Below, one piece after another: positions 34,339 through 57,780 of a DNA stretch of 64,000 nt. How positions within the stretch are numbered: position 1 is the first letter of the stretch; each line of letters starts with the position of its first letter. Source of the stretch: Candidatus Helarchaeota archaeon (GTDB lineage Archaea; Asgardarchaeota; Lokiarchaeia; Helarchaeales; RDOG01); NCBI GenBank assembly GCA_019058315.1, contig JAHPZH010000004.1, positions 96,001-160,000 on the forward strand, read 5' to 3'. A model generated the notes under the pieces. That model saw nothing but the letters and a program-made list of their open reading frames with translations. It had not been told where the DNA came from and ran no database searches. Position numbers and translations under genes: made by a program.

Positions 34339-35265
34339 ATGACTGTTGAAATTAAATCAAATAAAACAAATATCAGTTGTCCAGATTGTAAAAATGATGT
34401 AAATTTTATCCATGATTATGAACGTGGCGAGATTATTTGCGAAAATTGCGGAATTGTCATTAGTGAAAAAATAATAGACCAAGGACCCGAATGGCGTGCA
34501 TTTAATAATTCAGAGAAAGAAAAGCGGAGTAGAACAGGATCACCAATATCATATACAATTCATGATAAAGGATTATCAACAGTTATAGATCGGCATAATA
34601 TCGATATTCATGGAAAAAAATTATCTGGAAAGACATGTCAAAAATTTTATAGAATAAGAAAATGGCATAGAAGATCGCTTATTATCGATTCTACTGCAAG
34701 GAATTTATCGACAGCTATGACTGAACTTGATAGATTAACTTCACAATTAGATATAACAAAGGGAGTGAAAGAATCTGCTGCAATTATTTACCATAAAGCT
34801 CTTGATAGAAATATTATAAGAGGAAGATCAATTAATACAATGATTACAGCAACTTTATATATTGCCTGTAAGCTTAGGAAAGTTCCTGTAACATTAGATG
34901 ACATTCTTAAATATACACAAATAAATAAGAAGAAACTCGGGCGTGCTTATAGATTATTGATCCAAGGATTAGGCATAAAAATTCCAATTTTAAATGCTAA
35001 AGATTTTATTTCACGAATTTGTGCTGATCTTGAATTATCAAATCAAGTTCAAAAAAAAGCATGTGAAATAATAAATTTAGCTAATAATCAAAATATTACT
35101 ACTGGAAAAGAACCTATGGGACTTGCCGCAGCCGCAATATATATTGCAGGAATACTTGAGGATGAAAGAATAACACAAATGAAGCTAGCTAAAATGACTC
35201 ATATATCTGAAGTGACAATTCGTTCCCGTTGTAAAGATTTAAAAACTAAATTGAAAATAAATTAG
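34339..35265 (+). CDS. tfb: Transcription initiation factor IIB (TFB), paralog A
   Basis: CPDC...CENCG Zn ribbon, GPEWRAF, two cyclin repeats, SEVTIR. Confidence 0.96.
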   Translation: MTVEIKSNKTNISCPDCKNDVNFIHDYERGEIICENCGIVISEKIIDQGPEWRAFNNSEKEKRSRTGSPISYTIHDKGLSTVIDRHNIDIHGKKLSGKTCQKFYRIRKWHRRSLIIDSTARNLSTAMTELDRLTSQLDITKGVKESAAIIYHKALDRNIIRGRSINTMITATLYIACKLRKVPVTLDDILKYTQINKKKLGRAYRLLIQGLGIKIPILNAKDFISRICADLELSNQVQKKACEIINLANNQNITTGKEPMGLAAAAIYIAGILEDERITQMKLAKMTHISEVTIRSRCKDLKTKLKIN

Positions 35266-53311: not shown

Positions 53312-53773
53312 TTTGATTAATTTTATACTTATTATACAAATTGTATTTTAAGAATTAAAATAAAAATGTAAAATAAAAATTTTGTATAAGGTTAAAAAAA
53401 CATATCTCATTTGGATTTAGTAAAAAAGTAATAATTGTGAATTTTAAAGAAAATAAAACTAATTGAATTATTAACTTACTTAAAATTTATAAAATAAATC
53501 AAATTTTATAAATATTTTTAAGTGATTTTGTAATAATATATTGTGGAATTATTATTAAATTTAAGATATTGTCAATTTTTTAATTTAATATTAATCGAAT
53601 TTAAAATAAAAGTCGAAAAATAATTTTGAATTTCTATTTTTATTTTATGATCCTTCCTTATATTAAAGTTGTAAACATTTTAGAAATTCAAAATATTGGT
53701 TTAAAATTAAGAGAGATAATCAAAATTTGGTATATTTTACTACAAAATTGTTTCTATCAGTTATAAAATATTA

Positions 53774-54340
53774 TTGGAGATAAAATTGCAGGATTTAATT
53801 AGTAATACTAAAAAAATTATGAAAGTTCGGGGGTATAAAGTAAAAGAACAAGAAAAGTTGGATAAAAATCAAATTTTTTTAATTTGTGAAAAAAATTCTG
53901 GGAAGCCAAAAGAAGCTTTTCAAGTACTTATTTTAGGGGGAGATGGTACCACTGGTGTTGCAATTATCAGGGATATGGTCAAAGAAATGAAAAAAAAGAA
54001 AATTAATAATAAATTAATAATAGCTGGTGGCAAAGTCACAAGATCCGCTAAAAATGAAATGGAGGCAAATAAAATAGAGTTTATTCCAGCTCATTTGGTC
54101 TTAATGAATATATTAGAACATGAAATGGTTCCTAAACATGAAATAATACCTGAGGAAGAAGCAAATCAAATATTGGAAAAATATAGAATAACTCCAGAAC
54201 AGTTGCCTCTTATTTTTGATACCGATCCAGTTGCAATGATTATCGGAGCAAAACCTGGTGATTATATTAAAATAACACGTAAAAGTCAAACTGCAGGGAT
54301 GAGTATAATATATAGATTATGTATAAAAGGAGAGGAATAA
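53774..54340 (+). CDS. rpo5: RNA polymerase subunit Rpo5/RpoH with N-terminal RPB5-like jaw domain
   Basis: C-terminal HEMVPKH...QLP.I...DPV...GAKPGD.IKI.RKS.TAG...YR; about 110 extra N-terminal residues. Confidence 0.93.
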   Translation: MEIKLQDLISNTKKIMKVRGYKVKEQEKLDKNQIFLICEKNSGKPKEAFQVLILGGDGTTGVAIIRDMVKEMKKKKINNKLIIAGGKVTRSAKNEMEANKIEFIPAHLVLMNILEHEMVPKHEIIPEEEANQILEKYRITPEQLPLIFDTDPVAMIIGAKPGDYIKITRKSQTAGMSIIYRLCIKGEE

Positions 54341-54408: not shown

Positions 54409-55368
54409 TTATACTTCTAATAAGATTTTTAATTTTTTAACTAATTCTTTGTATCTATTCCGAATTGTAACTTCAGTTACATGAGCTACATCAGCTATTT
54501 CTCTTTGTGATTGTCGTTCACCTTTAAGGATGGCTGCAATATAAATTGCTGCTGCGGCTATACCTGTGGGATCTTTTCCTGATGTAATCGATTTATTAAT
54601 TGCCATATCTATAATATCAGCAGCTTTCTTCTGAACTTGATATGATAATTTAAGATCAGCGCAAAATCGGGGAATATAATCTTTAGCATTCGAAATAGGA
54701 ATATGTATACTCATTTTTTGAATCAGTAATCGGAAAGAACGCCCTATATCTTTTTTATTTTGCCTAGAATACTTAGAAATCTCATCTAACGTCCTTGGAA
54801 CTTTTCTAAGTCTGCAAGCTGCATATAATGATGCTGCAATCAAAGCATCAATTGAACGTCCTCTAATAAGACGCTTATTAATTACCTTACGATATAAGAT
54901 GGCTGCGGTCTTTTTTACTCCCTTTGGAATATCCAATTGTGAAGTTAATCTATCCAATTCTGTCATAGCTTGAGTTAAATTTCTAGCAATTGAACCATGA
55001 ACTCGAGATCTATATTGCCATTTTCGCATTCTATAAATACGTCTTTGGCTTTTTGGTGATAATTTATTTCCATGAATATCTTTATTATGCCAATCAATTT
55101 CTGTTGATAATCCTTTATCATAAATTGAATATGAAGGTGGAGGACCCACTCTTGTTTTCTTTTTTCTCTCTAAAGGATCAAATGCCCGCCATTCAGGACC
55201 GTGGTCAATAATTTTTTCTTTAATGACCAGACCACAATTTCCACAAATTAATTCTCCACGTGAATCATCATTTATCATATTTGTTTTTTTATTGCATTCT
55301 GGACAAATATTTTTTTGAATAGTTACTTTTTCTTCAATAGTCAATTTAAAAATCCTTAGAATTGCCAA
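54409..55368 (-). CDS. tfb: Transcription initiation factor IIB (TFB), paralog B
   Basis: CPEC...CGNCG, GPEWRAF, GKDPTG.AAA, TEVTIRNRYKEL. Confidence 0.96.
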   Translation of the reverse strand: MAILRIFKLTIEEKVTIQKNICPECNKKTNMINDDSRGELICGNCGLVIKEKIIDHGPEWRAFDPLERKKKTRVGPPPSYSIYDKGLSTEIDWHNKDIHGNKLSPKSQRRIYRMRKWQYRSRVHGSIARNLTQAMTELDRLTSQLDIPKGVKKTAAILYRKVINKRLIRGRSIDALIAASLYAACRLRKVPRTLDEISKYSRQNKKDIGRSFRLLIQKMSIHIPISNAKDYIPRFCADLKLSYQVQKKAADIIDMAINKSITSGKDPTGIAAAAIYIAAILKGERQSQREIADVAHVTEVTIRNRYKELVKKLKILLEV

Positions 55369-56955: not shown

Positions 56956-57780
56956 TTAAATGTCAATAACATTAATTTTATTATCGATAATTTCAGCTAT
57001 TTTTGTCCCCCTTCTATAATATTCACAGGTAAATAAGCTTATTAGTTTTTCATTAAAAAATGTCTTATATCCTCCTAGAAAAGCTTCATGAGATCGAATT
57101 AAATATTCTAAATTATTTTTAGTCATAAATTTATTGAAACTTTTTAACCCAAAAAAATAACCAATTCCTCTATAACTAAATTCGTCTTGTTGAATTGTCT
57201 CTTTTGGATCATTCCAGACGATTTGTTGTGCTATATCTGGTAGTTCTTCAAGAGTTTGAACATTTTTTGGAATATTTGCAATATCTTTTAAAGTATAGCT
57301 TTCACCTTCCTTCCTTATGGGTATTCCTCCATGAAGCATTAATATATTATTATAAACGATTGCATAAGGGAGTTTGGAAAATGTTCTTTTATAATATTCA
57401 TATACTTCTTCAAAATCTTCCTTAAAATAAGCAAAAACTTGATTATAAAAACCATAATTCATATTCATACTTGGAAATTCATGATTACCTCTCAAGAGTA
57501 TAAGTTTTTTGGGTTCCATTATTTTCATATTTAGTAAAAAATTAATATTTTGAATGGCCTTTTCGCCTCGATCTACATAATCTCCTAAAAAAATCATAAA
57601 ATCATAATTTTCAGACTTAAATTTCTGGACTATGTCATTAGTAATGTCATAATCCCCGTGCGTATCACCAACAACTAAAATTTTTTTGTATATATCATCT
57701 AAACGCAAGAGAGATGGTTCATTATCAAGAATTTTATTAACTTTTTCACATAAATCAATGATGTCTTCTTTCTCCAACAT
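56956..57780 (-). CDS. PPP-family Ser/Thr protein phosphatase
   Basis: GDTHG, GDYVDRG, LRGNHE, HGG, WNDP, RSHE. Confidence 0.93.
   Translation of the reverse strand: MLEKEDIIDLCEKVNKILDNEPSLLRLDDIYKKILVVGDTHGDYDITNDIVQKFKSENYDFMIFLGDYVDRGEKAIQNINFLLNMKIMEPKKLILLRGNHEFPSMNMNYGFYNQVFAYFKEDFEEVYEYYKRTFSKLPYAIVYNNILMLHGGIPIRKEGESYTLKDIANIPKNVQTLEELPDIAQQIVWNDPKETIQQDEFSYRGIGYFFGLKSFNKFMTKNNLEYLIRSHEAFLGGYKTFFNEKLISLFTCEYYRRGTKIAEIIDNKINVIDI

What the first reader, a model, noticed from the sequence alone, without database searches (positions are those of the whole stretch)
53774..54340. Eukaryote-type two-domain RPB5 outside the RNA polymerase operon
Seen: 188 aa, with an N-terminal region MKVRGY...TTGVAIIRDMV...LIIAGGKVTRSAK...IEFI before the Rpo5 core. 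Known: typical archaeal RpoH is only the roughly 80-aa C-terminal domain and precedes rpoB, whereas eukaryotic RPB5 has an N-terminal jaw domain with RGY, VGV and ITPSA-like motifs. Here no rpoB follows; a tfb converges on it instead. Inference: a eukaryotic-signature polymerase subunit, relocated or a second paralog. Similar long forms may already be reported in some archaea.
Basis: partly seen in the sequence, partly recalled or inferred. Interest (0 to 1): 0.7.

Follow-up and report, generated by a model that had tools for sequence, protein, structure and literature searches.

The report
Archaeal RpoH with Rpb5-type jaw domain
This Asgard archaeon's RNA polymerase subunit H carries the extra N-terminal "jaw" domain, a dead restriction-nuclease fold, that the papers I could read call eukaryote-only; this genome has two such genes, and the same long form is common in Asgard archaea and Bathyarchaeia.

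Summary
The ORF at 53774-54340 (+) encodes a two-domain RpoH/Rpo5. Residues 111-183 are a canonical Rpb5_C core (Pfam E 1.4e-30). Residues about 5-109 form a PD-(D/E)XK (Mrr-like) domain without a conserved catalytic triad.

This N-domain is homologous to the eukaryotic Rpb5 jaw. N-domain-only hhalign gives probability 98.4% and E 5e-15. The whole AF2 model superposes on human, yeast and plant Rpb5 (Z 15-20, 2.4-2.8 A over about 178 of 184 residues). The invariant RGY and T-x-SAK motifs are kept. Pfam's own Rpb5_N model does not match, and the eukaryotic insert of about 20 aa is missing.

The likely start is TTG 53786 (184 aa), not ATG 53819.

The genome holds two long paralogs on one contig (75% identical, dN/dS about 0.1 in both domains). 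It has no short rpoH, and rpoB and rpoA1 are single and unlinked.

In the loci I sampled, long forms are never next to rpoB (0 of 82 loci from other genomes). Short forms always are (12 of 12).

This scan has already found the long form on other DNA in at least 25 genomes. I found no paper describing it, and several papers state that archaea lack this domain.

The parts
53786..54340 (+). Long-form rpoH/rpo5 gene (184 aa from TTG 53786). Alternative starts are TTG 53774 (188 aa) and ATG 53819 (173 aa, which would cut helix alpha1).
   Evidence: ORF. The paralog's ATG aligns to 53786, and 8 of the first 12 residues are identical although dS is saturated. Most homologues begin at this position. 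The alpha1 helix is modelled at pLDDT 76-90.
53786..54100 (+). N-terminal jaw-like domain. It has an inactive PD-(D/E)XK (Mrr-like) fold (alpha1-RGY, three strands, helix, strand, T-x-SAK helix, strand) and is homologous to the eukaryotic Rpb5 N-terminal domain.
   Evidence: Pfam Mrr_cat 7.9e-6 and NA-iREase1 1.1e-6. N-only hhalign against eukaryotic Rpb5 gives prob 98.4, E 5e-15. VIA Z 19.8 to 7vba_E over residues 1-184, and N-only hits AF1548 Z 11.2 and EndoMS Z 10.4. No conserved acidic residue or Lys in strands beta2/beta3.
54104..54322 (+). Rpb5_C / RpoH core domain
   Evidence: PF01191 E 1.4e-30 covering the full model 1-73. G000:C1:150104-150322, 106.8 bits. PDB 1hmj E 4.5e-22.
53776..53779 (+). 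GGAG, a possible Shine-Dalgarno sequence 6 nt before TTG 53786
   Evidence: Read from the sequence. Inference only; no RNA data.
53731..53768 (+). Two A/T-rich TATA-like elements (TATATTTTA at 53731-53739, TTATAAAA at 53761-53768). Which one is used decides whether the TTG starts lie on the mRNA.
   Evidence: Read from the sequence. Not tested; no RNA run is listed.
54409..55368 (-). Neighbouring convergent tfb (TFIIB family, 319 aa), one of 8 tfb genes in the genome. This is context, not a shown functional partner.
   Evidence: Pfam TFIIB 1.2e-48 plus Zn_Ribbon_TF 4e-18. 16 cyclin-repeat matches, i.e. 8 genes. The adjacency is not conserved in relatives.

Best explanation
The gene encodes a functional subunit Rpo5 (RpoH) of the archaeal RNA polymerase in a two-domain, Rpb5-like form.

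The C-terminal globe is the universal Rpb5_C module that binds the largest subunit. The N-terminal 105 residues are a catalytically dead Mrr-type PD-(D/E)XK domain, homologous to the eukaryotic Rpb5 'jaw'.

By inference from Pol I/II/III structures, this domain sits at the lower jaw beside downstream DNA. There it would act as a guard rail or protein-docking surface, not as a nuclease.

This genome has two such genes and only one rpoB and one rpoA1. Both paralogs therefore presumably compete for the same core enzyme, giving two RNAP variants.

Shown here: domain composition, homology, predicted fold, purifying selection, gene copy numbers and linkage. Inferred: assembly into RNAP, position on the enzyme, lack of nuclease activity, and any division of labour between the paralogs.
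For: - Domain composition: Rpb5_C E 1.4e-30; the N part matches Mrr_cat and NA-iREase1.
- Sequence links to eukaryotic Rpb5: phmmer alignments to human and Drosophila Rpb5 run into the N-domain. A profile of the long forms aligns 200-220-aa Rpb5 proteins in a single stretch from profile position about 20-45 to 177. Seven of these were confirmed as PF03871 + PF01191.
- N-domain-only hhalign: prob 98.4, E 5e-15, 99 columns. RGY aligns to the eukaryotic (D)RGY motif and T-x-SAK to the eukaryotic T-x-x-AK.
- Structure: AF2 pLDDT 86, pTM 0.79. The top 36 Foldseek hits are all Rpb5 chains, with about 200 aligned columns and TM 0.67-0.82. VIA Z 14-20, rmsd 2.2-3.1 A.
- No conserved D...(D/E)xK. The conserved N-domain residues are R19, G20, G61, V62, R66, K70, G84, T89, A92 and E95.
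- Sole RpoH: the long form is the only Rpb5_C gene in this genome (two copies) and in 3 complete Bathyarchaeia chromosomes, 1 Heimdall MAG and 1 Jord MAG.
- Selection: between paralogs, dN 0.18 and dS above 1.5 in both domains. A 94%-identical contig from another study differs at third codon positions in 13 of 16 listed sites.
- Yeast genetics: R26E in the DRGY motif and alpha1 deletions are lethal (PMC1802627).
Against: - The Pfam RNA_pol_Rpb5_N model does not match (E > 1).
- The archaeal domain lacks the eukaryotic insert of about 17-25 aa after the RGY strand.
- No protein, RNA or complex data exist. No RNA run is listed.
- The start codon is non-ATG, and the TATA-like element at 53761 could place the transcription start downstream of it.
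- A phylogeny including eukaryotes is unresolved, so homology by descent to the eukaryotic jaw is not separated from an old independent fusion.
- With a paralog present, this copy need not be the main subunit.
Confidence: 0.85

Rival explanations
1. Convergent fusion. Archaeal RpoH and eukaryotic Rpb5 each independently acquired an Mrr-like nuclease domain at the N-terminus. The resemblance would then reflect a common Mrr ancestry of the added domains, not descent of one two-domain protein from the other.
For: Archaeal N-domains match Mrr_cat/NA-iREase1 and not PF03871. Eukaryotic Rpb5 proteins also match Mrr_cat weakly. The tree does not place eukaryotes inside any archaeal long-form clade.
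Against: The two share features beyond the fold. The fusion order and linker length are the same. RGY ends helix alpha1. The G-V/I...R and T-x-SAK motifs are in register over 99 columns. The inter-domain orientation is the same (rmsd 2.4 A over both domains). The best non-RNAP structure reaches only Z 11 over the N-domain alone.
Confidence: 0.1
2. The window copy is a diverged paralog that no longer serves in the core RNA polymerase (a regulator, a decoy or a decaying duplicate). The other copy, at C1:253842-254396, would be the real subunit.
For: - Two copies exist.
- The window type is rarer in the databases: 3 sequences against 12 of the other type in the close-homolog tree.
- It uses a TTG start while the paralog uses ATG.
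- It sits beside one of 8 tfb genes.
Against: - The two copies align gaplessly at 184 aa.
- All family-invariant residues are retained.
- dN/dS is about 0.1 in both domains.
- Third-position substitutions dominate in a second strain from another study.
- Branch lengths are similar to the paralog's.
Confidence: 0.15
3. Translation starts at ATG 53819 or later, so helix alpha1 or the whole N-domain is not made.
For: - Gene callers chose the ATG in close homologues (P0002 and P0013 at 173 aa).
- TTATAAAA at 53761-53768 could place the TSS near 53790.
Against: - The 11 codons before ATG 53819 keep frame. 7 of these 11 residues are identical to the paralog, and 27 of 36 nt are identical across the 12 codons from TTG 53786 through ATG 53819, against 17 of 36 nt just upstream.
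- Most homologues start at the longer position.
- GGAG precedes TTG 53786.
- Even from ATG 53819, the RGY motif and the whole beta-sheet of the N-domain would be made.
Confidence: 0.12
4. The two copies are an assembly or binning artefact: two organisms merged into one MAG (contamination estimate 6.6%).
For: CheckM-type contamination is 6.61%.
Against: Both genes lie on the same 604,681-bp contig C1, 104 kb apart. They are 75% identical, not near-identical strain variants.
Confidence: 0.03

Closest known systems
Eukaryotic Rpb5 / RPABC1 (Pfam PF03871 + PF01191; e.g. PDB 1dzf, 7vba_E, 5flm_E, 7eu0_E) and its ASFV homologue (8q3b_E)
   Same: - Same two-domain order.
- Same fold in both domains and same inter-domain orientation (Z 14-20).
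- RGY at the end of alpha1, G-V/I...R helix and T-x-SAK motif in register.
- No nuclease triad.
   Different: - About 25 residues shorter.
- Lacks the eukaryotic insert after the RGY strand and has a shorter alpha1.
- Not recognised by the Pfam Rpb5_N HMM.
- About 30% identity overall, mostly in the C-domain.
- Serves one RNAP core, not three.
Canonical short archaeal RpoH/Rpo5 (about 75-90 aa; PDB 1hmj, 7ok0_H, 4qiw_H)
   Same: The C-terminal domain is 47-58% identical. Databases give the gene the same name.
   Different: - Short forms lack the N-domain.
- In all 12 short-form loci checked they sit directly upstream of rpoB.
- The long form here and in 82 other loci is never within 4 kb of rpoB.
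Free-standing Mrr-like PD-(D/E)XK nucleases (Pfam Mrr_cat PF04471, NA-iREase1 PF22722; structures AF1548 1y88, EndoMS/NucS 5gkj)
   Same: The N-domain has the same fold (Z 9.5-11.2 over about 100 residues). There is weak but significant HMM similarity.
   Different: No conserved D...(D/E)xK in beta2/beta3. Fused to Rpb5_C. Conserved residues lie elsewhere (RGY, K70, T-x-SA, E95).
Rpo13 of Sulfolobales
   Same: According to PMC3479171, Rpo13 occupies the place between Rpo5 and the clamp head that the Rpb5 N-domain fills in eukaryotes. That is the likely place of this domain too.
   Different: Unrelated helix-turn-helix protein encoded by a separate gene.
Plant NRPB5/NRPE5 paralogs (7eu0_E, 8hyj_E)
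   Same: More than one Rpb5-type subunit gene in one genome.
   Different: The plant paralogs serve different catalytic cores (Pol II/IV against Pol V). Here only one rpoB and one rpoA1 exist.

Membership tests
RpoH/Rpo5/Rpb5 subunit family (Rpb5_C, PF01191) | Full-length match to the Rpb5_C domain above Pfam's gathering score | tested here: met
   105.3 bits against a cut-off of 23.5, model positions 1-73 of 73. Invariant H..VP.HE, LP, DP, R.S.T and Y residues are kept.
Two-domain Rpb5 (eukaryote type) | Match to Pfam RNA_pol_Rpb5_N (PF03871) | tested here: not met
   No match at E <= 1. Other archaeal long forms also lack it, while eukaryotic representatives score 48-97 bits.
Two-domain Rpb5 (eukaryote type) | N-terminal domain homologous to the Rpb5 jaw, judged by profile-profile comparison without the C-domain | tested here: met
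   hhalign prob 98.4%, E 5.1e-15, 99 aligned columns, query 8-107 against template 10-133.
Two-domain Rpb5 (eukaryote type) | Same fold and same relative orientation of both domains as in solved Rpb5 | tested here: met
   The model is predicted (pLDDT 86). Foldseek TMq 0.74-0.82 over about 200 columns. VIA Z 19.8, rmsd 2.4 A, 178 residues.
Two-domain Rpb5 (eukaryote type) | Invariant (D)RGY motif at the end of helix alpha1 (R26E is lethal in yeast, PMC1802627) | tested here: met
   R19 is present in 53 of 53 archaeal long forms, G20 in 85% and Y21 in 72%. The motif aligns to the eukaryotic RGY. Yeast data.
Two-domain Rpb5 (eukaryote type) | Eukaryotic insert (helices after the RGY strand), giving an N-module of about 140 aa | tested here: not met
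   A gap of about 17-20 residues in the archaeal profile opposite the eukaryotic insert. The N-module here is about 105 aa.
Two-domain Rpb5 (eukaryote type) | Stoichiometric subunit of the RNA polymerase, sitting at the lower jaw | not testable with these tools
   Indirect only. It is the sole kind of Rpb5_C gene in this and 5 other genomes.
Active Mrr-type PD-(D/E)XK nuclease | Conserved catalytic D ... (D/E)-x-K in strands beta2/beta3 | tested here: not met
   Across 53 sequences, the beta3 positions have 0% acidic and at most 25% basic residues. beta2 has at most 47% acidic at any position.

The most novel reading that the evidence does not exclude
The 'eukaryote-specific' Rpb5 jaw arose in archaea, as a dead Mrr-type nuclease domain fused to an rpoH copy that had left the rpoH-rpoB operon. 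Eukaryotes then inherited it from their Asgard ancestor. Recurrent duplications of the long gene (this lineage; tandem pairs in another Asgard family) would mean that some Asgard archaea build alternative RNA polymerases on one catalytic core. That would be a first step towards polymerase specialisation.
Probability: 0.4. Interest if true: 0.8.

Novelty: new variant of a known kind. Interest (0 to 1): 0.6.

Why it matters
Papers on RNA polymerase evolution treat the Rpb5 N-terminal module as one of very few features that are both eukaryote-specific and shared by Pol I, II and III.

- PMC1802627 describes it in these terms.
- PMC3906176 says RpoH has no N-terminal extension.
- PMC3424549 lists PF03871 as Eukaryota only.

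A homologous domain on the only RpoH of many Asgard archaea and Bathyarchaeia moves the origin of this module into archaea. It also identifies its ancestor as an inactivated Mrr-like nuclease.

The archaeal version is a minimal, insert-free jaw that can be tested biochemically. In yeast the jaw is essential, and alpha1 and the RGY motif are the critical parts.

Two further observations suggest that the subunit's evolution was tied to a change in how it is expressed or used. The long form is strictly associated with loss of rpoB linkage, and the gene has duplicated more than once.

Tried and rejected
- Pfam Rpb5_N: no match for the window protein.
- Remnants of an N-domain upstream of the short rpoH in 13 same-class genomes: N-domain HMM against six-frame translations scored at most 3.7 bits. 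The read-through matches with stops are therefore spurious.
- Conserved rpoH-tfb synteny: not seen in six related loci. Neighbours there are a Fae-like gene, a corrinoid protein, ribosomal protein S2 and others, named by me from their N-terminal sequences without a family search.
- Placing eukaryotes within archaeal long forms: the backbone is unresolved (quick LG+G4 tree of 57 rows). Short rows scatter, and no conclusion is drawn.
- Expression: no RNA holder listed. Only DNA contigs could be laid.
- The first tree script gave no answer.
- ARAGORN found no tRNA near the paralog, although Rfam did.
- Literature: seven full-text searches found no paper describing an archaeal two-domain Rpo5. The 2026 survey of archaeal RNAP small subunits (PMC13257274) modelled Helarchaeota, Thorarchaeota and Bathyarchaeota Rpo5, but the passages I read do not mention it. 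Supplementary tables and non-open papers were not searched.

Full report
**What is there**

The window is AT-rich (28.6% G+C). It is positions 96001-160000 of contig C1 of a 5.79-Mb, 12-contig genome (94% complete, 6.6% contamination).

The ORF 53774-54340 (+) is real. Pfam finds a complete Rpb5_C domain at residues 111-183 (E 1.4e-30). In residues 12-105 it finds weak but significant matches to Mrr_cat (7.9e-6) and NA-iREase1 (1.1e-6), and no match to RNA_pol_Rpb5_N.

The upstream neighbour is an ABC-transporter ATPase on the other strand, identified by my reading of its Walker motifs. The downstream neighbour is a convergent tfb. The gene therefore stands alone.

**Start codon**

The genome's second copy (C1:253842-254396, ATG start, 184 aa) aligns without gaps from the position of TTG 53786.

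The 12 codons from 53786 to ATG 53819 keep frame. They are 27/36 nt identical and 8/12 aa identical to the paralog, against 17/36 nt immediately upstream. Synonymous sites between the copies are otherwise saturated.

GGAG lies 6 nt before TTG 53786. Most homologues begin at this position, although some close ones were called from the internal ATG at 173 aa.

I take 184 aa from 53786 as the product. This is inference, because no RNA run is listed. A TATA-like TTATAAAA at 53761-53768 leaves some doubt.

**Is the N-domain the Rpb5 jaw?**

Four independent lines say yes.

- (a) phmmer against PDB sequences extends the alignment to human Rpb5 into residues 54-110 and to Drosophila Rpb5 from residue 15.
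- (b) A profile of 23 long forms, searched over 1.84 billion representative proteins, aligns many proteins of 200-220 aa in one stretch from profile position about 20-45 to 177. Seven of these that I tested are PF03871 + PF01191 proteins, i.e. eukaryote-type Rpb5.
- (c) With the C-domain cut off, hhalign of 53 archaeal N-domains against those 7 eukaryotic N-domains gives probability 98.4%, E 5.1e-15 and 99 aligned columns. RGY aligns on RGY, G-V...R on G-I...R, and T-x-SAK on T-x-x-AK. There is a gap of about 17-20 residues where eukaryotes carry an insert.
- (d) The AF2 model (pLDDT 86, pTM 0.79) has eukaryotic or ASFV Rpb5 chains as all of its 36 best PDB matches. They cover about 200 aligned columns, with TMq 0.67-0.82, mostly 0.74 or higher. 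VIA-align gives Z 14.4-19.8 and rmsd 2.2-3.1 A over 161-183 residues.

For comparison, archaeal RpoH structures match only residues 110-186 (Z about 12). The N-domain alone matches the Mrr-like AF1548 (Z 11.2) and the EndoMS/NucS nuclease domain (Z 9.5-10.4).

The eukaryotic Rpb5 jaw is itself classified as a PD-(D/E)XK fold (PMC3424549). Eukaryotic Rpb5 proteins also hit Mrr_cat weakly. The Pfam Rpb5_N model covers only the first 89 positions, including the eukaryotic insert, which explains why it misses the archaeal form.

**Not a nuclease**

Among 53 archaeal long forms the conserved N-domain residues are R19, G20, G61, V62, R66, K70, G84, T89, A92, E95, I101 and I104 (188-aa numbering).

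Strands beta2 and beta3, where D and (D/E)xK would sit, have no conserved acidic residue or lysine.

In yeast, R26E in the invariant DRGY motif and deletions of the first half of alpha1 are lethal (PMC1802627). The same motif is invariant here.

**Is it the polymerase subunit?**

The genome has exactly two Rpb5_C genes, both long, and no short one. It has a single rpoB on contig C7 with no rpoA behind it and a single rpoA1 on C10.

In three complete Bathyarchaeia chromosomes, one Heimdall-labelled MAG and one Jordarchaeum MAG, the long form is the only Rpb5_C gene. A universal subunit with no other copy must be the subunit. That the N-domain sits at the lower jaw is inferred from the shared inter-domain geometry.

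**The two paralogs**

They are 75% identical: 71% in the N-domain and 78% in the C-domain. dN is 0.18 and dS above 1.5 in both domains.

In a tree of close homologues, the window copy groups with two metagenomic sequences (P0002 at 91% identity, and P0015). This group is sister to a clade of 12 that includes the own paralog. The only other sampled genome of the same family lies outside both. Support is moderate (SH-aLRT 80-87). The duplication is therefore older than a genus-level radiation but younger than the family.

A 709-nt contig from a different sediment study covers 53623-54330 with 45 differences and no gaps. Of the 16 listed differences inside the CDS, 13 are at third codon positions and 9 are silent; the two changes in codon 114 are counted one at a time.

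Both copies are on one 605-kb contig, so this is not binning noise.

Another Asgard family (f10) commonly has tandem pairs of long genes. The two members of each pair fall into separate clades shared between genomes, so that is an independent duplication.

**Distribution and linkage**

In 301 genomes of the phylum, 281 have a match. Matches over the whole profile (positions about 2-180) occur in many families. These include Helarchaeota-labelled relatives of the window's own order, and Jord- and Heimdall-labelled genomes.

The two large families of the same class have only the short form: a match from profile position about 95-103, with open frames mostly of about 90-105 aa. One of these families contains a 4.4-Mb single-contig genome.

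A pattern scan of GTDB species representatives returned the long form in dozens of Bathyarchaeia. It also returned one Heimdall-labelled, two Jord-labelled and one Hadarchaeota genome.

None of 82 long-form loci from other genomes has rpoB within the fetched flank (up to 4 kb; some loci end sooner). All 4 short-form loci of that scan have rpoB directly downstream. So do all 8 short-form loci that I fetched from the window's own class.

These genomes are kin, so the counts are not independent. Even so, the pattern holds in several lineages on each side. I found no remnant of an N-domain upstream of the short genes.

**What remains open**

A 57-row tree including eukaryotes recovers the eukaryotic clade (97), the window's order (95) and Bathyarchaeia (95), but not the backbone. 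Whether eukaryotes inherited the jaw from an Asgard ancestor is therefore plausible but not shown.

The adjacency to tfb is unlikely by chance: by a rough post-hoc estimate of my own, under 1% for 8 tfb genes in about 5,500 genes. But it is convergent in orientation and not conserved in relatives. I treat it as context. Eukaryotic Rpb5's N-domain is reported to bind TFIIB (cited in PMC13257274), which makes it a lead only.

**Prior knowledge**

Database entries call these proteins 'DNA-directed RNA polymerase subunit H' without comment.

The papers I could search state that archaea lack the domain, and none describes the long form.

Earlier agents of this scan reported the same long form in at least 25 other genomes. 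My tests agree with them.

What this window adds:
- a genome with two dispersed long paralogs and no short gene;
- the contrast, within one class, between unlinked long forms and operon-linked short forms;
- population-level evidence of purifying selection on the rarer paralog.

Noticed in passing
window 34699-35247 and 54409-55368; genome G000 contigs C1, C3, C5, C7, C11: The genome carries 8 tfb (TFIIB-family) genes, seen as 16 cyclin-repeat matches. Two of them lie in this window.
   Followed up: partly
G000:C7:135618-138980 (L004 7618-10980, minus strand) and G000:C10:151809-152744: The RNA polymerase genes are dispersed. rpoB stands alone with no rpoH before it and no rpoA after it. rpoA1 is on another contig. 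Same-class genomes with a short rpoH at least keep rpoH directly upstream of rpoB.
   Followed up: partly
L005 942-999 and about 1420-1462 (G000:C1, just upstream of the paralog at 253842): Rfam finds a tRNA match (36 bits) with most of the T-arm region missing. About 40 nt before the paralog's ATG lies a sequence that looks like a tRNA 3' half ending in CCA. ARAGORN calls neither. They may be split or intron-containing tRNA genes.
   Followed up: partly
G134:C31:10606-11822, G245:C1:2176836-2178034 and many other genomes of family f10: Tandem pairs of long-form rpoH genes are common in one Asgard family. The two members fall into separate clades shared between genomes, so this is an old duplication, independent of the one in this genome.
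   Followed up: partly
L104-L111 (short rpoH of same-class families f4 and f5): The C-domains of these same-class short RpoH proteins are only 42-47% identical to the window protein. That is less than for most solved archaeal RpoH structures: Sulfolobus acidocaldarius 55-58%, Methanocaldococcus 56%, others 47-54%. It hints at fast evolution in those families or a different history of the two forms.
   Followed up: no
L052 (JBLNCY010000003.1, labelled Methanocella sp. MAG): A contig labelled Methanocella carries a long form like the Bathyarchaeia ones in match span and identity. It may be a mis-binned or mislabelled contig.
   Followed up: no
window 56956-57780 (-): A 274-aa ORF carries metallophosphoesterase / PPP-type phosphatase motifs (GDTHGD, GDYVDRG, GNHE). 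This is my reading of the translation only.
   Followed up: no
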